A stretch of DNA of 64,000 bases, from positions 9,849-73,848 of IMG/VR virus record IMGVR_UViG_3300010883_000017; one strand, 5' to 3'. Within the stretch, counting starts at the first letter, position 1. The number at the start of each line of letters is the position of its first letter. Source of the DNA: a virus. A program made the translations under genes and the position numbers. The notes below the pieces were generated by a model, which had not been told where the DNA came from, searched no databases, and was given only the letters and a program-made list of their open reading frames with translations. Shown in pieces: positions 1-9,901 of this stretch.

Positions 1-1
1 T

Positions 2-310
2 CAGGATATTCCAGAATTAGAAGTCTTGGCCATAGTGCCTGTGTGGGGTATTCCACAGGATAAGATGGTTCCGGCCATCTATCTGACTAAAGACGGCACG
101 GGCATGTCACCGCACCAATTGTTAATGACATTTGACCGCTTCTTAGCCGGCATGGAATATAAACTGAACCGGACAAGAGAGCTGCTACAAGCAACAGGTG
201 AAATGTTAAATAAGCAAGCAGGTGAAATAGATGCCAACCAGAAACTTCTCGCGGAGCACGCAGAACTCCTCTCAGAAGCCGAGGAAAGTAAAAAGAGTGA
301 AGAAGAGTAA
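2..310 (+). CDS. hypothetical protein, probably 5'-truncated by the window edge
   Basis: Frame is open from the window start; coiled-coil-like C-terminus. Confidence 0.5.
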   Translation, partial: QDIPELEVLAIVPVWGIPQDKMVPAIYLTKDGTGMSPHQLLMTFDRFLAGMEYKLNRTRELLQATGEMLNKQAGEIDANQKLLAEHAELLSEAEESKKSEEE

Positions 311-902
311 GCGCCCTAAGTCAGCGCGCCTGCATAGCTTGTTACAGGAGTTGGATATCAAATCCTGGGACGTGCTCTTAATAGGGGATGGTTCCGGCAG
401 CGGCTGGGATATCGGGGTTGGTTGGTCGTGCGTAGTGATAGATCGATATACGAAGTCTCGGAAGCTAATACACGGCGGCGGTAGTACAGGAACTGTAAAT
501 ATCGCGGAGCTGATGGCCTACGTGCACGCCATGCTTTGGTACTCTACCCACATAGGCCGTGAGCTGCGCAAGCAATACCCTCGCAAGATTCTCAATATTC
601 ATGTAATCACGGATTCCCGTGTTATTGTGACCCAGGGCAAGAAGGTTGCAGAACGGAACACAGAAGGGCTGGCTAACCGCGCGTTGTGGGCATCCATCAG
701 CGATATCGCCCGCCAGGGTTACACATTCCACTGGCATTGGATCGCGCGGCTCACTAATGAATTGAACTGGGCGGCCGATCAGATGGCAGGCTCAGCCAGA
801 AAAGCTGTAAAAAATTGCATGCTTACTGAGGACGTGCCGGATGAGAACGGCAAGTATACGGGGGTGTCGATATACGACATCAACCCACTAATTAAAAAAT
901 GA
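231..902 (+). CDS. ribonuclease HI-like protein
   Basis: Acidic catalytic set in LIGDGS, NIAEL, ITDS and WAADQMA, plus HWHWI; the true start may be further downstream (~297). Confidence 0.75.
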   Translation: MPTRNFSRSTQNSSQKPRKVKRVKKSKRPKSARLHSLLQELDIKSWDVLLIGDGSGSGWDIGVGWSCVVIDRYTKSRKLIHGGGSTGTVNIAELMAYVHAMLWYSTHIGRELRKQYPRKILNIHVITDSRVIVTQGKKVAERNTEGLANRALWASISDIARQGYTFHWHWIARLTNELNWAADQMAGSARKAVKNCMLTEDVPDENGKYTGVSIYDINPLIKK

Positions 903-906
903 CCAA

Positions 907-1020
907 AGGTTAGCGAAGAATAGCAAAGTGAGGTTGCGGCTAGTTATGCGTGGGTGTGAAATTTCGTGCATTGTTTAGCAAGTGCCCCCGTTATGTAGAA
1001 ATATATACCGGGGGATTTTT
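907..1020 (+). ncRNA. pentamer-periodic guide-like RNA unit U1 (15 pentamers + GAAA hairpin 985-1014)
   Basis: aggtt agcga agaat agcaa agtga ggttg cggct agtta tgcgt gggtg tgaaa tttcg tgcat tgttt agcaa; G at position 2 in 14/15; hairpin followed by ATTTTTAATCCAAG. Confidence 0.8.
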
Positions 1021-1026
1021 AATCCA

Positions 1027-1084
1027 AGTGCAGTGAAGAGAGACTAGAAGTGCAAATCCAAGTAACACAAGGCAAAGTAGGACA
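1027..1084 (+). ncRNA. truncated/degenerate pentamer unit U2 (no terminal hairpin)
   Basis: Follows the ATCCAAG linker; agtgc agtga ... agtaa cacaa ggcaa agtag gacaa with one register slip; runs into the next ATG. Confidence 0.45.
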
Positions 1085-1633
1085 ATGAATATCTGCCATG
1101 AGCACGAGTTCATACTATGGGCACACCCGAGAACCGCAGCGCGTTTTGTATATTCTGCGCTGCGGAACCGCGGAAGCATGGGTCCTCTCACGCATCGAAC
1201 CGGTGTTCCGATAGACGGCGCTGGTTACAGTGTTGTTTGCACGGTGCGCAATCCCTATACGCGAATGCTATCTGCGTGGAAGTGGACGAATGCGGTGGGA
1301 AAGCAGCGGTACTCGCCGGAGAGTTTTACGGAGTTTGTAAGAAAGCACACGCCGTTATGGGGGTTACCGCCGATTTCAAAGGACCTGGGCCACAAGTTGA
1401 AGATGGTCAAATACTTTGTGCGCACAGAGTCGATTGAGAAAGACTTACGCGCACTCCCCTGGGTTCCGGACACACATTCGTTCCCCAAGAATACGTACTG
1501 TAGTAATTATAAGGGCTACACTCCGACCGCTTTGTATGACGAAGAAGCACAAGAGAAAGTTCGCCGGTTGTATTGCGGAGATTTTGCAGAGTTCGGATAC
1601 GATCCAGATGTGATTCCCGCAACGTTTTATTAA
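1085..1633 (+). CDS. sulfotransferase family 2 protein
   Basis: HPRTA (5'PSB-like), VRNPYTRMLSAW (3'PB), C-terminal DFAEFGY. Confidence 0.75.
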   Translation: MNICHEHEFILWAHPRTAARFVYSALRNRGSMGPLTHRTGVPIDGAGYSVVCTVRNPYTRMLSAWKWTNAVGKQRYSPESFTEFVRKHTPLWGLPPISKDLGHKLKMVKYFVRTESIEKDLRALPWVPDTHSFPKNTYCSNYKGYTPTALYDEEAQEKVRRLYCGDFAEFGYDPDVIPATFY

Positions 1634-1646
1634 CGAAAGAAGGACA

Positions 1647-1907
1647 ATGAGAGTAACGGAGATTTCTGTAGAAGTAGGCAGAACTGCCACCATTAATTAC
1701 CAGAGCGCGCGCAACTCAGTTGGTCTTACAGCCACCCTAGCGGCTGATGACCACGCGCCTACCGCGATCCGCTCGTTACAAAAGCAAGCCGTAGATATGC
1801 TTCTAGGTGACAACGAACAATTTCGGGACGCCGAAAATGTGACTTCTGTGGATGCGGAGAGCCTAGATGCGGCTATTCGTGCAGGGGCGGAGTCTCGCGA
1901 ACACTGA
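1647..1907 (+). CDS. hypothetical protein
   Basis: ORF with GAAGGA RBS. Confidence 0.6.
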   Translation: MRVTEISVEVGRTATINYQSARNSVGLTATLAADDHAPTAIRSLQKQAVDMLLGDNEQFRDAENVTSVDAESLDAAIRAGAESREH

Positions 1908-1931
1908 TTTACCGTGGGTAACGGGCAAATA

Positions 1932-2960
1932 CTTTGTTATCCATAACAGGATTTTTGATCTAAGTCGTGCCCCGTAGTGTGGAGAGGATCTAAGAGGACT
2001 ACCGCCGACAACAGGAAGTACGGTATGCATCCTTGGCGTGCAGAAATGTGCGCCAGGGGTTTTTTGATCTAAGGCCAGTCTTGAGGAACGAAGTTCGGGA
2101 AAGTCTCGATGAGTTTACTTGTGTACTGCCAATTTTAGTTCGCAATAGTGATGGAAAGCGGTGCGGATTTTAGCGCGGCGTAGTACAGTGCCCCCGCCAT
2201 GTGGAAACGCGTGGCGGGGGATTTTTGATCCAAGGGAAGAGGCGCAAAGGGGTACCAAGTTGAGCTCCGCATACAAACGCTTAGAACTCGGCAGTACAGC
2301 GAGGGATAGCGCTGCGCAGCGATGCGTAGACTAATGTAAGTAAGCATCCCTGTCGTATGGAAACATGCGCCAGGGATTTTTTGATCTAAGAAATAGCAAA
2401 GCAGCGTACGGGCATGATCACTCATAACAAGTCGAGCGCACTCTAGGTGTGTGCGGTATACAAGAGTAACAGCCCCCGTCATGTAGAAATGTGTGACGGG
2501 GGATTTTTGATCTAAGCCGGGTAGGGTAGAGGGATGCTCGGTAAATACCAGCCGGGACAAGTGTGGCCGTCAAGTGCGGGCTCAGTTAAGTTAGCGCTTC
2601 CGTCGTGCAGAAATGTGTGGCGGGGGATTTTTGATCCTAGGAAAGAGCCGTTGTGGCAAGTGGAGAGGAGCCCAGACCAGCATCGTATAGTAGCGCTCGG
2701 TCAAGCTCGGGATACCTTAGCCCGCGTAATCAGAGATGGTTGCGCGGGTATTTTTGGCCCCGTTCGTCTAGTGGACTAGGACACCGGCTTCTCAAGCCGG
2801 GAACAGGAGTTCAATTCTCCTACGGGGTACATTTTGATCCAAGTGGAGTCGATATTACCGGTGTATAGGGGAGGCTAGTCCTGCAACGAGCAGTTCTGCG
2901 TCGCTCAGATAACCAGACTAGTGGGCCCGGGCGTTCGTTACGGGCGCTCGGGCTCATTTA
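1932..2960 (+). repeat. array of seven pentamer-periodic guide-like RNA units (U3 1963, U4 2072, U5 2233, U6 2389, U7 2515, U8 2639, U9 2842) separated by hairpin + ATTTTTGATCYAAG repeats
   Basis: Hairpins at 2031-2058, 2191-2220, 2348-2375, 2473-2502, 2597-2626 and 2721-2748 (GAAA/GAGA loops) and 2922-2956, with compensatory changes and G-U pairs; intervening tracts have 5-nt periodicity. Not a CRISPR array. Confidence 0.88.
2757..2829 (+). tRNA. tRNA-Glu (anticodon CTC), no encoded CCA
   Basis: Acceptor GCCCCGT/ACGGGGT, anticodon arm CCGGC-TTCTCAA-GCCGG, T arm AGGAG-TTCAATT-CTCCT. Confidence 0.92.
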
Positions 2961-2997
2961 TTACGTGGCAAACTGGGTTCAAATAGGGAATGTAAAT

Positions 2998-4041
2998 ATG
3001 AAAAGCAGGAAGAAAAAAGTTAAGCAAAATACAAAGCGAAACGCGCCGAAAACATCAGTTTTGCGCCGCAAGAATACACGTTTAATGAGCAGGACTTCCG
3101 GAGGACGGCAGTCAGTTGTCGAAGCGCGTCTTGATAAAAAGGCCGATACAATTTTGGCCAAAGCAAAAATCATCAAGATAGCTGCGCAACCAACAAAGGT
3201 GTACCGCACTGTGAAAATTGACGATCTCCAGATCGACAACTCTTATCAGCGTCCGCTGAAAGAAGGTCATATTGCTGACATCATGATGTACTTCAATTGG
3301 GAGGGCTTCGGCACACCAGTTATAGGACGCCGTACTGGTGGCGGGCTATGGTTAATTGACGGGCAGCAGCGGATTACCGCAGCGCAGCGCTTGGGTGCTA
3401 CCAGCGTTGGCGCAGAGATCCGCGATTCTGTAGGGCCCAAATATGAAGCAAGTCTGTTTCATTTGTTGAACTCAACGAGCGTCGTCCCGACGAAGATGCA
3501 GATCTTCCGCGCGGCATTGCGCGCGGGTAATAAGAACGCCGTTGCTATCAATAAAGCAGTTAAAGAGGCGGGATTTCAAATCCATTTGAATGCGGTCAAT
3601 TATAGCGGCAGCGAGTGGCCGTATATTCGAGCACTCAGTCGTTTAGAAAAGCTGTTTAAGTACGGCGGCGTACAATTTCTTACGGAGGTGCTCTCGATAA
3701 TTAGTGAGACGTGGCCGGAAGAAGATGACGCAGTTCGCGAGGACGTTATCGGTGGAATGCACCGGTTTATTCGTTTTACTCGGTACAGTGATCCGCGCCC
3801 CAAGGGCTGGTTGCACGAGCTCATGCCCACAAGGGGGATGACGCGCCGCGATCGTATCGTAGAGGCGATTACGCAGAAGGGTCTGACTGCTGCAGGCTTA
3901 CATAACAAAGCTGCGAACAGCAAGGAATCGGCGTCTGGCTACAGCCGCGCCGAAGCTGTGCAGCGTATCTTGGACGAGACGTGCAGGTTTAATAGCCGCC
4001 GTAGAACGCCTAAAAGTACCGCTGCCGACGACATGGTTTAA
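2998..4041 (+). CDS. ParB/Srx-like N-terminal domain protein (DUF6551-like)
   Basis: LQIDNSYQRPL and LIDGQQR motifs; basic N-terminus. Confidence 0.7.
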   Translation: MKSRKKKVKQNTKRNAPKTSVLRRKNTRLMSRTSGGRQSVVEARLDKKADTILAKAKIIKIAAQPTKVYRTVKIDDLQIDNSYQRPLKEGHIADIMMYFNWEGFGTPVIGRRTGGGLWLIDGQQRITAAQRLGATSVGAEIRDSVGPKYEASLFHLLNSTSVVPTKMQIFRAALRAGNKNAVAINKAVKEAGFQIHLNAVNYSGSEWPYIRALSRLEKLFKYGGVQFLTEVLSIISETWPEEDDAVREDVIGGMHRFIRFTRYSDPRPKGWLHELMPTRGMTRRDRIVEAITQKGLTAAGLHNKAANSKESASGYSRAEAVQRILDETCRFNSRRRTPKSTAADDMV

Positions 4042-4096
4042 TACATGCGTATAAGCCCCCACACACACACTTTGCGTGTGTGCGGGGGTTGTTTAC

Positions 4097-4171
4097 TGCT
4101 CTGTGCTGCTGCGCGATACAAAGCGGAGCTGGGTCAAGCGGAGAAATGCCCGGGCCAGCATAGCAGAGTTT
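4097..4171 (+). ncRNA. pentamer-periodic guide-like RNA unit U10, directly upstream of the Cas7-like gene
   Basis: tgctc tgtgc tgctg cgcga tacaa agcgg agctg ggtca agcgg agaaa tgccc gggcc agcat agcag agttt; G at position 2 in 14/15; preceded by a CCCCC..CGGGGG hairpin (4056-4088). Confidence 0.82.
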
Positions 4172-4203
4172 TTGTTTTTGAAATTAAATGGAGGAATTTG
4201 AGT

Positions 4204-4998
4204 ATGCCAACCACAAAAAAGGCCCCTAAAAAGGCCACTAAAAAGAGAGGCGTTAAAGGAAATATGTCTGCGATGTTAGCAGAGATGCCAGACGACGCGC
4301 TTGCTACCATAGAAAAAGAGGGGGGAGACCTTCTCGACCTGGAGCTTATTGAGTTTCACTGGTTGGAGTGTGAAATCATCGGATCAAGTCCTTTGGTTAC
4401 TAATCGGTTCTCTGATGAGTCTTTGGATGCGATCGAGGGTAATCAGACCCAAGGAGCAACTGGTAAGAAGCTTAAGAAGCCCCCGCGACAACCTGAGAAG
4501 GAGTTTATGCAGGCTGCGCATATATGTAAGGGGAAAGCAGATCCTGCGCACCTTGAGAAGAACATCTATGGATTTCCCGCTGTCGCTTTGAAAAAGGCCA
4601 TGGCTAACGGGAACTACAGATACGGAGGCGCGAAGGATAAGGTGTCGCAGATGGGCGCATTTCATGTGCACGGCCCCTGGCACGGGCTGATCGAGGTGCA
4701 GGGGCTTGATGACAAGCCGTGTATCCCCTCGATGGGACGTGATATGGTCCAGCTTCCTAAGGGGCAGATTGCGTCTATCGCGTATAGACCATACTACTTC
4801 CCGTGGAAGATGAGCGTATTTATCCGGTATTGTCCGACCTTGATGTCCAAGGACGAGCTGATTCACGCCCTGTATATCGCAGGCAATTGCATCGGCATTG
4901 GTTCTTGGCGCACGGAAAAGAGCGGGGACAAGGGCTCGTTCGACGTCGGTGATATCAAGTACCACGGAAAAAACTTCCAAGCACCTCTGTGCTCGTAA
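4204..4998 (+). CDS. stand-alone Cas7/RAMP-like RNA-binding protein (Vipr-like candidate effector)
   Basis: GGAGG RBS; EIIGSSPLV strand, YGFPAVALKKA helix, RPYYFPW, and Gly-rich C-terminal loop AGNCIGIGSWRTEKSGDKGSFDV typical of Cas7-group RAMPs. Confidence 0.75.
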   Translation: MPTTKKAPKKATKKRGVKGNMSAMLAEMPDDALATIEKEGGDLLDLELIEFHWLECEIIGSSPLVTNRFSDESLDAIEGNQTQGATGKKLKKPPRQPEKEFMQAAHICKGKADPAHLEKNIYGFPAVALKKAMANGNYRYGGAKDKVSQMGAFHVHGPWHGLIEVQGLDDKPCIPSMGRDMVQLPKGQIASIAYRPYYFPWKMSVFIRYCPTLMSKDELIHALYIAGNCIGIGSWRTEKSGDKGSFDVGDIKYHGKNFQAPLCS

Positions 4999-5012
4999 AT
5001 AGTTAGTTACGC

Positions 5013-5058
5013 CCCCGGCCTCGTTGATTATGTCAGCGGGGCCGGGGTTATTTTTTTT
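5013..5058 (+). terminator. intrinsic terminator
   Basis: CCCCGGCCTCGTTGA/TCAGCGGGGCCGGGG stem followed by a T8 run. Confidence 0.8.
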
Positions 5059-5077
5059 GGCTTCTGGAGAAACAACA

Positions 5078-5329
5078 ATGTCAGATCCTACTGAAAGCAT
5101 TCGACGAGAAATGGTTGCTCACATTAATAACGAGCCGGCCACACGAGAGCAACTTGAAGAGCAGCACGGACGCGTATGGGATACCGCAGAAATGCAAAAA
5201 GACTTCGAGGTACTTGGTTTCATGGCACCGCTCGTGGTCGTTAAGAGAACCGAAGACGCCGTTCGCGGCGCGTTGGAATTCCAACATGCCCCGCGCTTCT
5301 ATTACGGCTTTACGGAATCACAGGGATAG
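5078..5329 (+). CDS. conserved hypothetical protein
   Basis: GGAG RBS; VWDT..DFEVLGFMAP..LEFQHAPRFYY resembles a small family I recall from Planctomycete genomes. Confidence 0.65.
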   Translation: MSDPTESIRREMVAHINNEPATREQLEEQHGRVWDTAEMQKDFEVLGFMAPLVVVKRTEDAVRGALEFQHAPRFYYGFTESQG

Positions 5330-5332
5330 CCT

Positions 5333-5971
5333 GTGCATATTGTCCACATCATCGCATCTGAAGGAGCAGATGCCGATGATGCCCGCCTGATGGCGGAAAA
5401 CGGGATAGAAGGCTACGGCAACGGAGACGTGTGGGATTGGTACGAGGTTGGAGGTCGCTGGGAGGGCTTTATCGGTGCCACTTATGGTGAAACTGGAGAA
5501 GAGCAAGTCCCGGGGGTAAACCAGCTTTGTTACGCAGAGAATCCCGAGTTATTTAACGAAACCATAGACAACGCGATCAGCGGTCGAAACGCTGAGTTAC
5601 TTGAGGCGTTACACGCCATCCGTGGTGACGTAATTAGTTCTGAGGTAGTTCCTGAGCACTTCATGGGCCTGCCCATAGATAATAAAGAAGCAGTGGCAAA
5701 AAGGGTATCAGAGCAAAATGTTGCACACAGCGCCGAGTGGCAGGCACTACTAGCCTGCAATACAGTGGCCGATCTGGACAAGATAAACGGCCAACACCAC
5801 CTGGTGTTTTACAAGGTTTACAAACTAATGAAGGGGGTGATGGGTCACTATGATTTTGACAGCCGCTTTTACGACGCAGACGCCGGTAGCACGGGCCGCT
5901 CGTACGTAGACGACCGGAAGGGGTGCGACCCGGATAAACAATGGATTACCGTTTTTGACCTACACAATTAA
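5333..5971 (+). CDS. hypothetical phage protein
   Basis: WDWYEVGGRW motif and terminal DLHN, a common phage family pattern. Confidence 0.65.
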   Translation: MHIVHIIASEGADADDARLMAENGIEGYGNGDVWDWYEVGGRWEGFIGATYGETGEEQVPGVNQLCYAENPELFNETIDNAISGRNAELLEALHAIRGDVISSEVVPEHFMGLPIDNKEAVAKRVSEQNVAHSAEWQALLACNTVADLDKINGQHHLVFYKVYKLMKGVMGHYDFDSRFYDADAGSTGRSYVDDRKGCDPDKQWITVFDLHN

Positions 5972-5981
5972 GGAGTTTTAA

Positions 5982-6224
5982 ATGGCAGTACAGGAGACCT
6001 TTAGTCTTACAGACATCTTTGATGAGGCGCAGCTCACCAGATTAATCACTCTTTGGAAGAAACCAGGCACCACCACCGAAGATATATGCACTAAAATAAT
6101 TGAGCCCAATATGGGTCAGATTAATGAAAAACTGAGCATACTTACAGATGGTAGGATGGCTGACAATTACCCACAGTACATTGCGTACTGTTGTGAATTT
6201 GCATTAAGGAAAACAGATAATTGA
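5982..6224 (+). CDS. hypothetical protein
   Basis: AGGAG RBS, operonic spacing. Confidence 0.6.
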   Translation: MAVQETFSLTDIFDEAQLTRLITLWKKPGTTTEDICTKIIEPNMGQINEKLSILTDGRMADNYPQYIAYCCEFALRKTDN

Positions 6225-6237
6225 AGGAGGTAGCTAT

Positions 6238-6834
6238 ATGGCGACCACGGAAACGGCACAAACCCCGGCGCTAGCCACGCCAGTTGAAGTTCGATTTAGA
6301 GCTGCAACAGGTTCGCGCTTTAATAAAGCAGATGCTGAACGAATTGGGCCCGAACTACTGCGGCTGAAGAAGCACCACGGAGTTCTTACCAAGGATCTAC
6401 TTGTACAAAAGGCGCAGAGCGCCCGCTCGATCTTGCATGCTGATTTTAATTGGGATGACGCAACAGCTGCGCATGCCCACCGATTGGAGCAAGCACGTTA
6501 CATACTGCGGTCCATCATGATTGTGTGGGATGAGAGCACACCTGATGGCGGTGTCGAGCAGGTGTCTACGCGCTTGTTCCACAGTGTCCGCGTGAACAGC
6601 GATGATGAGGATGCCCCAACAAACCGCGGTACCCGCAGTCAACGCGTACACGTCACGTTTCGAGATGTGGTTGAGAACCCGGAATACGCTCAACAGGTCA
6701 TCGATTCTATGGAACGAGCAGTAGTGCGGTTGGATGCACGATTTCGGTTTTATTTGGATAAAGTTCCAATGTTTGCCGAAAGGTACCAGGGACTTTTTGA
6801 CGAGATTACCGCCTTGGAAGATAACATAGACTAG
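6238..6834 (+). CDS. hypothetical protein, candidate accessory of the Cas7-like gene
   Basis: AGGAGG RBS; LHADFNWDDATAAHAHRLEQARYILRSI motif. Confidence 0.7.
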   Translation: MATTETAQTPALATPVEVRFRAATGSRFNKADAERIGPELLRLKKHHGVLTKDLLVQKAQSARSILHADFNWDDATAAHAHRLEQARYILRSIMIVWDESTPDGGVEQVSTRLFHSVRVNSDDEDAPTNRGTRSQRVHVTFRDVVENPEYAQQVIDSMERAVVRLDARFRFYLDKVPMFAERYQGLFDEITALEDNID

Positions 6835-6911
6835 TTGTAGACTAGTTATCGGTCGTGGCTACTTGAGGAACTATCGTTGACAGTCCTGCACTGTGCCAGA
6901 CGTTAATCGGC

Positions 6912-6962
6912 CCCGTGAGTGTTATTTTTGTCACTGCGGGTGTCAAATTTGACACTCACGGG
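6912..6962. repeat. imperfect inverted repeat containing the palindrome GTGTCAAATTTGACAC
   Basis: CCCGTGAGTGT ... ACACTCACGGG arms; perfect 16-bp palindrome at 6940-6955. Confidence 0.7.
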
Positions 6963-7277
6963 TACTCGGTGCGTTATTTTCAGTAAAAACTAAGTATTTG
7001 GTCGTACCCAGCTAGCACGTAGATAACATCAATATTCGTTGATACGTGTACTTCTTGTAAATTTCGTCAACAATTATGATTTTGGCTTAAACCATTAGAA
7101 ATAAAGGAGTTACGTGGGGTCTAGAGGCCGACCGCTAGGGAGGCGTCTTTAGACCCACAACACCCCACAGGGTGTTAATAGCATAACTTTTATGCTATTG
7201 CGATTTGACACTTTCGGGCACTTCGCCTGATTTTGCGGGCACTTCGCCCGAAAAGCACTGCAAGGAGGGTTCCCACA

Positions 7278-7628
7278 GTGACACGAGAGACGCAGATTCT
7301 TCGATTAACCGCAGATGAGGTGGCGAGATTAGAGCGCCTATGTACGGCGCCGGACCCTGATGTTGAAAATAACGCAGTTGTTTTCGATCGCAGTGTTTCG
7401 TTTAGTTCCAATTGTGTGGGTTACGTTCAGGTGATTTCTAGCGCTCATCCGGGTAAAAAGCCGTGTTGGACGCAGGCCGTGCTTTTTCAGCAGGGGGTAT
7501 CGGATGAGCTCCTGGAGCTCGTTTGCACGCCGCCGGGCGATACAGTTCTAGGCGAATACAATATGCATCTTGGTGATAGGGAGTACACGATTGACGTAGT
7601 TCTAGACAAGAACGAGGAGTTTGTTTAA
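7278..7628 (+). CDS. hypothetical protein
   Basis: AGGAGG RBS before GTG. Confidence 0.6.
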   Translation: MTRETQILRLTADEVARLERLCTAPDPDVENNAVVFDRSVSFSSNCVGYVQVISSAHPGKKPCWTQAVLFQQGVSDELLELVCTPPGDTVLGEYNMHLGDREYTIDVVLDKNEEFV

Positions 7629-8431
7629 TGGCAACACTGTTATTGGGCCCCCGCGTCCCAAACGTGGCGGCCACGTGGCGTAGCGGTATGAGGGAAGTTT
7701 TGCCCCTTCCTTGCTCAAATTTTCGTGAGTCTGCGCGTGCGCTAGCTCAGGATGATCTTCTTCGCGCGTGTTACCTTATTGAGAAAGTGTGGGAGTTCGA
7801 CGAGATATACCGGGGTGACTACTGGCCACCCAGGTCGGAGCGTGTGGATATTCCGGAAGCTATTTTTGCAGCCACAGCAGTCGACCGGTATCCGGCGAAC
7901 ATATCGCTTATTTGTTGGTGGTCTTTGTGGCGAGATTTTCCAGTCGCGCTTGCCCTATACGAACACGAGCTGCTGATGACGGTAAAAGCCCACAACCAGC
8001 CCGGCCAGACGGGTATTCAAGGCAGGTACTTTCGAGATCTATCAACAGCCGTTTATCGGTGCGGTAGGCGTCTTCGCGAAGCTGACGTACCTCCTGCGTC
8101 TAAATTAGCGCGAAAGATTATAAAGGAGGTTGAATGGCTGGGGGACGAGCGGCTTCACTCGTGTCACCGGAGCTACCTTACGCATTCTAATCGTAAGTGG
8201 TATGGCCAGTACGGCTGGCGAGATCCTAATATCAAGCTGCGGGTTGACCAAACGGTTAAACGGACGACCTTGTTTGATCACGTCGGTGTGGCAATGTGCC
8301 AGACCGACTACGGGCTGCCGATGTTTGCGTATGAGTTTTGGTTTCCGGATAGCGTTGTTGAATTTGCTGAATGCGTTCGGTACGAGCATCCGGGTTTGCT
8401 GCGCGCAGGCGGACTAGCGGTGCCCGTCTAA
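7628..8431 (+). CDS. MSMEG_6728/pyrimidine-dimer glycosylase-like protein, divergent
   Basis: LP..NFRESARAL N-terminus and WLGDERLHSCHRSYL motif; the KQxVE segment is not conserved. Confidence 0.5.
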   Translation: MATLLLGPRVPNVAATWRSGMREVLPLPCSNFRESARALAQDDLLRACYLIEKVWEFDEIYRGDYWPPRSERVDIPEAIFAATAVDRYPANISLICWWSLWRDFPVALALYEHELLMTVKAHNQPGQTGIQGRYFRDLSTAVYRCGRRLREADVPPASKLARKIIKEVEWLGDERLHSCHRSYLTHSNRKWYGQYGWRDPNIKLRVDQTVKRTTLFDHVGVAMCQTDYGLPMFAYEFWFPDSVVEFAECVRYEHPGLLRAGGLAVPV

Positions 8432-9688: not shown

Positions 9689-9901
9689 ATGGCGAAGAAG
9701 AAGAAGAGGAAAGCGCAGGTTGAGACGCGGACGCATTACGCTACGCGTGCACTTTCAGATAATAAAGAGCGAGTTTGTTTACGGTGTAGCAGACTTTTTA
9801 AATCTCTGGGACCGGGTAATCGGGTGTGCCAAGCGTGCACAACTGCTAATAAGACTGTGCAGATAACACAACGTTATACGCATATGCATGAAGAGGAGTA
9901 A
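9689..9901 (+). CDS. small Zn-ribbon protein
   Basis: CLRC..F.S.G.GNR.C..C; paralogue at 19139. Confidence 0.6.
   Translation: MAKKKKRKAQVETRTHYATRALSDNKERVCLRCSRLFKSLGPGNRVCQACTTANKTVQITQRYTHMHEEE

What the first reader, a model, noticed from the sequence alone, without database searches (positions are those of the whole stretch)
1932..2960. Covarying GNRA hairpin + ATTTTTGATCYAAG delimiter between guides
Seven 12-13 bp stems with GAAA/GAGA loops (985, 2031, 2191, 2348, 2473, 2597, 2721) differ in sequence but keep pairing through compensatory changes and many G-U pairs, which work only as + strand RNA. Each is followed by a U-tract and, except at 2721 where the tRNA intervenes, by GATCYAAG (variants AATCCAAG, GATCCTAG), whose final AG is the first scaffold triplet and sets the register. 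They could be leaky terminators, 3' caps limiting filament length, or processing sites; no Cas6-like enzyme is evident nearby.
Basis: partly seen in the sequence, partly recalled or inferred. Interest (0 to 1): 0.7.

Follow-up and report, generated by a model that had tools for sequence, protein, structure and literature searches.

The report
Hairpin tails separating phage VIPR guide RNAs
The repeated hairpins and the GATCYAAG motif are real and mark the end and the start of each guide RNA in a phage VIPR array (a CRISPR-like system described in 2026); the system is known, but this way of punctuating the guides, with a tRNA gene inside the array, has not been described.

Summary
Seven + strand hairpins (13 bp, GAAA or GAGA loop, U5-6 tract) lie at 985-2749. 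They keep pairing through compensatory changes, and RAUCNWAG follows them.

The element belongs to a VIPR system (bioRxiv 10.64898/2026.04.26.720920):
- The 264-aa protein at 4204-4998 matches the solved SUSP1 Vipr by sequence and has a Cas7 fold.
- The stretches between hairpins are 5-nt periodic (A-G-Y-N-N).
- Unit U8 decodes by the published 1-nt-skip rule to motif IV of C5 DNA methyltransferases.

My reading is that the hairpin plus U-tract is the structured 3' tail of each vrRNA. Here the tail has the form of an intrinsic terminator, not the SUSP1 pseudoknot. RAUCNWAG is the 5' boundary, and its final AG is in phase with the pentamers in 7 of 9 units.

The motif also occurs without a hairpin: over ORF stop codons, after a conserved tRNA-Glu, and once 9 nt beyond a U-tract. 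An RNA-level 5' handle or processing signal is therefore more likely than a promoter.

Metagenomic relatives (Vipr 60-77% identical) keep the module while their guides differ. RNA ends could not be mapped, so the mechanism is inferred.

The scan has already found VIPR arrays with hairpin tails on other DNA. Verdict: a new variant of a known kind.

The parts
899..908 (+). Delimiter-like start of unit U1 (ATGACCAAAG). The TGA stop of the upstream RNase H-like ORF (231-902) lies inside it.
   Evidence: same arrangement in relative L044
907..984 (+). U1 guide, about 15 pentamers; G at pentamer position 2 in 88%
985..1020 (+). Hairpin 1 (13 bp, GAAA loop) plus ATTTTT
1021..1028 (+). Delimiter variant AATCCAAG. 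Two DNA runs read G at 1021, which gives GATCCAAG.
1934..1964 (+). Small leader hairpin, ATTTTT and the first GATCTAAG of the main array. The leader hairpin is conserved in L044.
2030..2073 (+). Hairpin 2, TTTTTT, GATCTAAG
2191..2234 (+). Hairpin 3, ATTTTT, GATCCAAG
2347..2390 (+). Hairpin 4, TTTTTT, GATCTAAG. Its counterpart in L048 differs by compensatory stem changes.
2473..2516 (+). Hairpin 5, ATTTTT, GATCTAAG
2597..2640 (+). Hairpin 6, ATTTTT, GATCCTAG
2639..2719 (+). U8 guide, 16 pentamers. Its NN pairs decode by the 1-nt-skip rule to ..DLIIGGPPCQAF, with the first pentamer included.
2720..2756 (+). Hairpin 7 (GAGA loop) plus ATTTTTG, abutting the tRNA
2757..2830 (+). tRNA-Glu(CUC) inside the array; same place and nearly identical sequence in L048
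2831..2843 (+). ATTTT plus GATCCAAG directly after the tRNA; start of U9
2925..2964 (+). Last hairpin of the array, after U9: 12 bp, non-GNRA loop, weaker U-rich tail
2965..4041 (+). ParB-like / DUF6551 gene next to vipr. Its position is conserved in L044 and L046. Candidate accessory (vap) gene.
4115..4176 (+). U10: delimiter-like GATACAAAG plus about 11 pentamers in the vipr 5' leader, with no hairpin
   Evidence: RNA contigs span it
4204..4998 (+). vipr, a 264-aa Cas7-like RAMP protein

Best explanation
The array 899-2964, together with U10 at 4115-4176, encodes about nine VIPR guide RNAs (vrRNAs) for the Vipr protein at 4204-4998.

Each unit reads, 5' to 3':
- RAUCNW, then AG;
- 11-23 pentamers of A-G-Y-N-N;
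- a short, loosely conserved stretch (consensus about UAAGUAAGYR);
- a 13-bp GNRA hairpin;
- AUUUUU.

The hairpin with its U-tract is the structured 3' tail of the vrRNA. By analogy with the SUSP1 pseudoknot tail, it ends and caps the Vipr filament. In this clade it has the build of a Rho-independent terminator, so it probably also forms or protects the RNA 3' end.

RAUCNWAG marks the 5' end of the next guide. Its last five bases can be read as one constant first repeat, and its AG sets the pentamer phase.

The only sequence shared upstream of the motif is 0-3 U residues. The contexts there are a U-tract, an ORF stop codon, a tRNA 3' end, or unrelated spacer. I therefore read the motif as an RNA-level 5' handle or processing signal acting on read-through precursors, and not as a promoter.

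At the embedded tRNA-Glu, RNase P and the host's tRNA 3'-end processing would release U8 and U9 with the same kinds of ends.

Shown here: the anatomy, strand, covariation, register, Vipr homology, conservation in relatives, and one decoded target. Inferred: termination, capping, and cleavage with its enzyme.
For: Vipr identity:
- Sequence match to the solved 'SUSP1 Vipr protein' 36pp_D, E = 3e-4 with the single protein and 1.1e-8 with a 14-sequence profile, across the G-loop region.
- The AF2 model (pLDDT 76) has Cas7-family proteins (Csm3/Cmr4 subunits, Cas7-11, type VII) among all listed top Foldseek hits.
- Homologues in Gordonia phages ODay and Pipp, and in 10 or more metagenomic loci, sit beside long pentamer arrays.

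Guides:
- Position 2 of the pentamer is G in 74% of 131 pentamers and position 1 is A in 53%. Per-unit G fractions are 0.71-0.94, against a background 95th percentile of 0.56.
- The 12-codon pattern decoded from U8 has 4 exact matches in IMG/VR, all at motif IV of C5 methyltransferases.

Tail:
- Covariation as given under the observation check, and + strand specificity.
- The terminator scan ranks these hairpins at the top.
- The model finds the module only here in the 73.8-kb record. It also finds it beside vipr relatives L048, L057, L044 and L046, where the guides differ.
- Published vrRNAs carry a structured 3' tail that caps the filament. [quoted passage not shown]

Delimiter:
- It is in phase with the pentamers in 7 of 9 units.
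- It occurs without a hairpin at L044:7726 and 9826, where the ORF's TGA lies inside it, and at L046:1641, L048:322 and L057:223.
- It occurs after tRNA-Glu in the window and in L048.
- It occurs 9 nt beyond the U-tract in L044.
- No sigma-70-like promoter is found in 1-6000.
Against: - No RNA 5' or 3' ends are available. The two metatranscriptome runs gave contigs only over 3151-4870 and none on the array.
- Seven strong terminators in series would starve distal units and the tRNA unless read-through is substantial or each unit has its own promoter. In SUSP1 each vrRNA is preceded by a conserved leader of about 35 nt that looks like a promoter.
- The tail is not uniform. U9 and copies in L046 and L057 have non-GNRA loops, U10 has no hairpin, and the hairpin is not at a fixed pentamer phase (4 of 7 share a phase). 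This argues against sequence-specific recognition of the tail by Vipr.
- GGY-to-AGY substitutions were among the GGY-motif perturbations that abolished silencing in SUSP1, so this Vipr must read a different scaffold.
- The VIPR type (I-VII) could not be assigned.
Confidence: 0.72

Rival explanations
1. Each unit is an independent small-RNA gene. The hairpins are efficient terminators, and the U-tract with GATCYA is, or overlaps, a compact promoter whose start site is at the AAG. Every vrRNA would then be a primary transcript, and no processing would be needed.
For: - The hairpins meet the sequence definition of strong intrinsic terminators, and the U-tract is nearly invariant.
- SUSP1 vrRNAs each have a conserved upstream leader that looks like a promoter.
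- (G/T)ATTTTTG resembles the Bacteroidota -7 element TAnnTTTG (own knowledge). The copy after the tRNA in L048 matches it exactly, which would put the start at the AAG.
- Protein genes directly follow hairpin plus delimiter in the window (1085) and in L048 (about 877), so something must drive them.
Against: - Upstream of the motif nothing is shared across contexts (hairpin, ORF end, tRNA end, spacer) beyond 0-3 U.
- No sigma-70-type promoter is found in 1-6000.
- TAnnTTTG and TTGATC show no use at other intergenic sites of the window.
- vipr has a GGAGG ribosome-binding site, which is not typical of Bacteroidota (own knowledge).
- The sigma-like gene next to the array in L044 and L048 is absent from this record.
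Confidence: 0.18
2. The hairpin, U-tract and RAUCNW together act as a CRISPR-repeat-like signal. A dedicated endonuclease cuts it just 3' of the stem, as Cas6 does. The enzyme would be Vipr itself or a neighbouring protein such as the RNase H-like ORF at 231-902. The cut leaves a hairpin tail on one guide and a short 5' handle on the next.
For: - The geometry matches a Cas6 product: a hairpin at the 3' end and a handle of about 6-8 nt at the 5' end.
- Vipr is a RAMP, related to Cas6.
- Processed arrays (staggered, or interspersed with ribozymes) are reported for other VIPR types.
- The RNase H-like gene directly precedes U1, and that arrangement is conserved in L044.
Against: - The motif works as a unit start with no hairpin upstream.
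- The repeats are not identical (74% mean column identity).
- No Cas6 or other cas family is detected among the neighbours.
- The papers read here do not report nuclease activity for Vipr.
Confidence: 0.08
3. The hairpins are DNA-level elements, such as attC-like recombination sites or cruciforms, or they are ordinary terminators of unrelated small RNAs with no link to Vipr.
For: Hairpins conserved in structure but variable in sequence and lying between cassettes recall integron attC sites (own knowledge). The same phage uses similar GC-clamped terminators after protein genes at 4055 and 5013.
Against: - 22% G-U pairs and a much weaker minus-strand fold.
- The obligatory U-tract.
- No integrase nearby.
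- The module occurs only beside vipr in five independent loci.
- The flanked segments are pentamer guides, one with a decoded target.
Confidence: 0.02

Closest known systems
vrRNA 3' tail of type II VIPR systems (Escherichia phage SUSP1; bioRxiv 10.64898/2026.04.26.720920 and 10.64898/2026.04.26.720927)
   Same: - A structured element of about 40 nt directly 3' of a pentamer guide tract, repeated at the end of every guide.
- It lies beside a Vipr RAMP gene that is detectably homologous.
- The guides follow the 1-nt-skip code.
- One guide lies upstream of vipr.
   Different: - Here the tail is a plain 13-bp GNRA hairpin with a U-tract, the build of an intrinsic terminator. It is not an H-type pseudoknot.
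- The copies covary, whereas the SUSP1 tail is described as invariable.
- The covariance model of this module has no hit in the SUSP1 locus.
- The scaffold is A-G-Y, not G-G-Y.
- The units are preceded by an 8-nt motif and not by a leader of about 35 nt.
- A tRNA lies within the array.
- Nine or ten guides against four.
Other VIPR array architectures: staggered arrays and hammerhead-interspersed arrays (same preprint, figs S18-S20), and non-canonical repeats such as WGT/NN (bioRxiv 10.64898/2026.10.21.760802)
   Same: Multi-guide arrays in which an element between guides defines the ends of the vrRNAs. Scaffolds other than GGY are already reported.
   Different: No hammerhead or other Rfam family is found between the units. 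The separator here is a terminator-like hairpin, an 8-nt motif and, once, a genuine tRNA. The words terminator and tRNA occur nowhere in the main text or supplement of the discovery preprint.
Rho-independent (intrinsic) transcription terminators
   Same: A GC-rich stem, a stable tetraloop and a U5-6 tract. GNRA and UUCG loops are common in E. coli terminators (own knowledge: d'Aubenton Carafa et al. 1990). The same phage uses similar hairpins after protein genes.
   Different: Seven stand in series on one strand, each immediately followed by a conserved motif and a guide. The family is conserved only beside vipr. Activity was not tested.
CRISPR repeats with Cas6 processing, and engineered tRNA-gRNA arrays
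   Same: Hairpin-containing separators between variable guides, and a RAMP-family effector. The tRNA between guides mirrors the engineered polycistronic tRNA-gRNA design, in which RNase P and RNase Z release the guides (own knowledge).
   Different: The separators are not identical repeats. There is no Cas6, Cas1 or Cas2. The guides are gapped pentamer codes and not contiguous spacers.

Membership tests
VIPR system (Vipr + vrRNA) | A Vipr RAMP protein (RRM core, G-loop, thumb) encoded next to the RNA genes | tested here: met
   Window 4204-4998 matches PDB 36pp_D 'SUSP1 Vipr protein' at E = 3e-4 (single protein) and 1.1e-8 (profile). The AF2 model has a Cas7-type fold.
VIPR system (Vipr + vrRNA) | Tandem 5-nt repeats with a fixed trinucleotide and a variable NN, at least 4 and typically 9-30 units | tested here: met
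   11-23 pentamers per unit. Position 2 is G in 74% and position 1 is A in 53%. The scaffold is A-G-Y, a non-canonical consensus of a kind already reported.
VIPR system (Vipr + vrRNA) | NN pairs specify a target by the 1-nt-skip rule, with the skipped base at the codon wobble position | tested here: met
   Tested for U8 only. The 12-codon pattern has 4 exact IMG/VR matches, all in frame at motif IV of C5 methyltransferases. The outer 3' pentamers did not match these particular hits.
VIPR system (Vipr + vrRNA) | A conserved structured 3' tail after the repeat tract | tested here: met
   A 13-bp hairpin with strong covariation. It is a hairpin and not the SUSP1 pseudoknot.
VIPR system (Vipr + vrRNA) | An accessory vap gene of one of the classes vap1-6, and assignment to a type I-VII | tested here: inconclusive
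   A ParB-like/DUF6551 gene is conserved next to vipr. No vap reference sequences or type tree were available.
VIPR system (Vipr + vrRNA) | vrRNAs are expressed and co-purify with Vipr | not testable with these tools
   Only contigs of two metatranscriptomes were available. They cover 3151-4870 and not the array.
Rho-independent terminator | A GC-rich stem-loop directly followed by a U-tract on the transcribed strand | tested here: met
   These are the top-ranked terminator-like sites in 1-6000. Stabilities are -13.8 to -28 kcal/mol.
Rho-independent terminator | Transcripts end in the U-tract | not testable with these tools
   No raw RNA reads were available.
CRISPR array with Cas6 processing | Near-identical direct repeats together with Cas6 or other cas genes | tested here: not met
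   The separators have 74% mean column identity and covary. No cas family is found among the neighbouring ORFs in Pfam, PHROGs or PADLOC.
Rfam RNA families (ribozymes, known sRNAs) | A match to a curated covariance model | tested here: not met
   Only the tRNA passes threshold in 1-6000.

The most novel reading that the evidence does not exclude
The hairpin, U-tract and RAUCNW module is a true processing repeat. A precursor spanning the whole array would be cut at each module, by Vipr itself or by a partner nuclease, and at the embedded tRNA by RNase P and RNase Z. This clade would then be a living intermediate between solitary tailed vrRNAs and CRISPR-type repeat-spacer arrays, and a natural counterpart of engineered tRNA-gRNA arrays.
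Probability: 0.12. Interest if true: 0.8.

Novelty: new variant of a known kind. Interest (0 to 1): 0.45.

Why it matters
VIPR was described only in 2026. The papers read here do not say how multi-guide arrays are transcribed, separated and loaded, beyond sRNA-seq of a few systems and predicted hammerhead separators.

This clade offers a simple module that can be tested: a terminator-like hairpin tail, an 8-nt 5' motif that fixes the pentamer phase, and a conserved tRNA inside the array.

- If the hairpin is sufficient as a tail, it would simplify the design of programmable vrRNAs.
- It would also show that filament capping needs only a stable stem and not a pseudoknot.
- If the motif is a cleavage signal, it bears on how CRISPR-style repeat processing arose.

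The locus also extends VIPR to a large uncultured marine phage whose guides aim at catalytic motifs of DNA-modification enzymes.

Tried and rejected
- RNA-end mapping. One search for sequencing runs found two marine metatranscriptomes with small shares. When laid on 1-8000 they gave only Logan contigs over 3151-3366, 3761-4358 and 4608-4870, and nothing on the array. This says nothing about array expression.
Relatives were obtained through the search for related loci instead.
- Exact-motif scans of IMG/VR gave no contig with more than one copy apart from the source record. The 32 single hits look like chance.
- No cultured phage is close. The DNA polymerase is about 27% identical to T5-like phages, and only the tRNA matches at DNA level.
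- The ParB-like protein alone found no IMG/VR relative.
- Promoter ideas were examined by eye and by pattern counts. They covered sigma-70 -10/-35, extended -10, an ECF-type -35 'GGAAAC' in the loop with a -10 'TCNAA', and the Bacteroidota TAnnTTTG. None is shared across the different upstream contexts or used elsewhere in the window. The ECF-like sigma gene next to the array in L044 and L048 is absent from this record.
- The GATC core as a Dam-type DNA signal. GATC is neither depleted nor enriched (272 observed against 244 expected), and relatives use GATT or AATC.
- Base pairing between the 5' motif and the stretch before the hairpin: no complementarity was seen.
- A fixed pentamer phase for the hairpin: only 4 of 7 share a phase, which is not significant.
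- The 3' limit of the U8 guide could not be set, because the four IMG/VR targets mismatch at the 13th pentamer.
- The genome-contig scan gave only a 31% identical relative in an Acidobacteriota MAG, so it gives no clue to the host.

Full report
**What is there**

The window is a fragment of an uncultured viral record of 73.8 kb. CheckV puts it at about 35% complete, and marine metagenomes hold it. All large ORFs lie on the + strand, and a replication module lies downstream.

Between an RNase H-like ORF (231-902) and a ParB-like/DUF6551 ORF (2965-4041), the sequence is punctuated by a repeated module.

- TTTTGATCYWAG, allowing one mismatch, occurs eight times. All copies are on the + strand within 1017-2843, against 1.1 expected by chance.
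- tRNA-Glu(CUC) at 2757-2830 lies between the U-tract of the seventh hairpin and ATTTTGATCCAAG.

**Structure and strand**

On the seven copies the 13-bp helix is 97.8% paired, and 10 of 13 pairs change on both sides. No shuffle reaches this, and slid registers give 33-58% paired.

Seven more copies from four metagenomic relatives were then added. The figures hold: 97.8% paired, 11 of 13 pairs and 41 cells with compensatory changes. RNAalifold predicts the same helix without guidance.

Likely counterparts differ by compensatory or wobble-preserving changes. Examples are window 2347 against L048:706, and window 2030 against L057:408. So the covariation is not only a product of paralogous copying.

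About a fifth of the pairs are G-U. Each hairpin loses 3-11 kcal/mol when the opposite strand is folded. The element is a + strand RNA.

A covariance model of the module finds only these seven copies in the source record.

**What it belongs to**

I checked that lead independently.

Protein:
- The 264-aa protein at 4204-4998 has a GGAGG ribosome-binding site.
- It matches the solved SUSP1 Vipr chain by sequence, E = 3e-4 alone and 1.1e-8 as a profile of 14 homologues, across the G-loop region.
- Its AF2 model (pLDDT 76) retrieves Cas7-family proteins (Csm3/Cmr4 subunits, Cas7-11, type VII) in every listed top hit.
- Homologues in Gordonia phages ODay and Pipp, and in many metagenomic loci, lie beside long GGYNN or AGCNN arrays.

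RNA:
- The stretches between the hairpins are 5-nt periodic. Position 2 is G in 74% of pentamers and position 1 is A in 53%.
- Read with the published 1-nt-skip rule, U8 gives ..DLIIGGPPCQAF.
- The corresponding 12-codon DNA pattern has four exact matches in IMG/VR, all in frame at motif IV of C5 DNA methyltransferases.

The units are therefore vrRNAs with a non-canonical A-G-Y scaffold. That kind of deviation is already reported.

**Role of the hairpin**

Published vrRNAs end in a conserved structured tail of about 40 nt. [quoted passage not shown]

The form is different, however. I read the SUSP1 locus itself. Its tails have no GNRA hairpin or clean U-tract, and the model of the present module does not hit it.

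Here the tail meets the sequence definition of an intrinsic terminator, and the phage uses similar GC-clamped terminators after protein genes (4055, 5013).

The U-tract is nearly invariant, but the loop is not obligatory:
- U9 ends in a non-GNRA hairpin.
- Copies in L046 and L057 have 6-7-nt loops.
- One L044 unit ends in a weak stem with U9.
- U10, in the vipr leader, has no hairpin at all.

This pattern fits generic roles: forming the 3' end, protecting it from exonucleases, and acting as a steric cap. It fits base-specific recognition less well.

**Role of GATCYAAG**

Its final AG is in phase with the pentamers in U1, U4, U5, U7, U8, U9 and U10. U6 is shifted by 1 nt and U3 is mixed. The first pentamer of U8 continues the decoded motif. 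Read in the published YNNGG frame, the last five bases of the motif form one constant first repeat.

The comparison with relatives is the most informative part. The motif (RAUCNWAG) starts guide tracts in very different upstream contexts:
- after a hairpin and U-tract;
- directly over the TGA stop of an ORF (window 900-902, and L044 at 7725-7727 and 9825-9827), and directly after an ORF in L046 and L048;
- after the tRNA, in both the window and L048;
- once 9 nt beyond the U-tract, in L044.

Nothing of promoter length is shared upstream. No sigma-70-like promoter is found in 1-6000. The promoter-like readings I tried are not used elsewhere in the window.

I therefore favour an RNA-level 5' handle or processing signal acting on read-through transcripts. 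The embedded tRNA would supply RNase P and tRNA 3'-end processing cuts that give equivalent ends.

The tRNA is nearly identical in L048 while the flanking guides differ. It is thus a conserved part of the array.

The alternative of a compact promoter for each unit remains open. Seven strong terminators in series would otherwise throttle the distal units, and SUSP1 units do have promoter-like leaders.

**What could not be done**

No RNA ends could be mapped. The VIPR type and the identity of the accessory gene could not be assigned.

**Verdict**

The element is the tail and boundary module of a VIPR vrRNA array. The system is known, and this scan has met VIPR arrays with hairpin or tRNA-like tails on other DNA. 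This form of punctuation is not mentioned in the VIPR papers read here:
- a terminator-like, covarying GNRA hairpin;
- an 8-nt motif that sets the register;
- a tRNA inside the array.

It is a new variant of a known kind, of moderate interest.

Noticed in passing
window 2757-2830; L048 423-495: A genuine tRNA-Glu(CUC) sits inside the vrRNA array at the same junction in two diverged phages. The tRNA is nearly identical while the neighbouring guides differ. An X2 DNA contig carries the same tRNA in a different context, followed by another tRNA.
   Followed up: partly
window 900-902; L044 7725-7727 and 9825-9827: The TGA stop codon of the upstream ORF lies inside the delimiter (A/U-UGA-UC/CC). 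Guides therefore start within a few bases of the end of a coding region.
   Followed up: partly
window 4115-4203: U10, a guide of about 11 pentamers with a delimiter-like start and no hairpin, lies in the vipr 5' leader. Two metatranscriptome contigs (3761-4249 and 4048-4358) run from upstream of it, across the terminator-like hairpin at 4055-4089, into vipr.
   Followed up: partly
window 4055-4089: The terminator after the ParB-like gene has a (CA)n stem. The two RNA-library contigs differ there by one CA unit, inserted in one run and deleted in the other.
   Followed up: no
L044 9288-9827; L048 from about 877: Relatives carry a small protein with sigma-70 region 4 / ECF-like features next to the array or to vipr. 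No homologue is found in this 73.8-kb record.
   Followed up: partly
window 2639-2719; L070-L073: Guide U8 matches the catalytic motif IV (GGPPCQAF) of C5 DNA methyltransferases in four IMG/VR contigs. This suggests the system targets DNA-modification genes of competitors or hosts.
   Followed up: partly
L041 3581-3850 (Gordonia phage Pipp gene 43); L040 3573-3794 (phage ODay): An annotated 'hypothetical protein' CDS in Pipp starts with GGYNN pentamers and overlaps a pentamer array downstream of a Vipr homologue. It is probably a vrRNA array and not a gene. ODay has about 38 GGYNN repeats in the matching intergenic gap, ending in a small hairpin.
   Followed up: partly
window 1021 and 2462: Two DNA runs read G instead of A at both positions. 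The change at 1021 turns AATCCAAG into the consensus GATCCAAG.
   Followed up: no
window 1957-1994: GATCTAAG occurs twice, 30 nt apart and in the same pentamer phase, at the start of U3. This may be a short aborted or duplicated unit.
   Followed up: no
L059 3300-3700; L053 4690-6010: More distant VIPR loci (Vipr 31-35% identical) also end their guides in plain hairpins, for example with a UUCG loop, and use AGC/GGC scaffolds. Plain hairpin tails may be widespread outside the SUSP1 clade.
   Followed up: no
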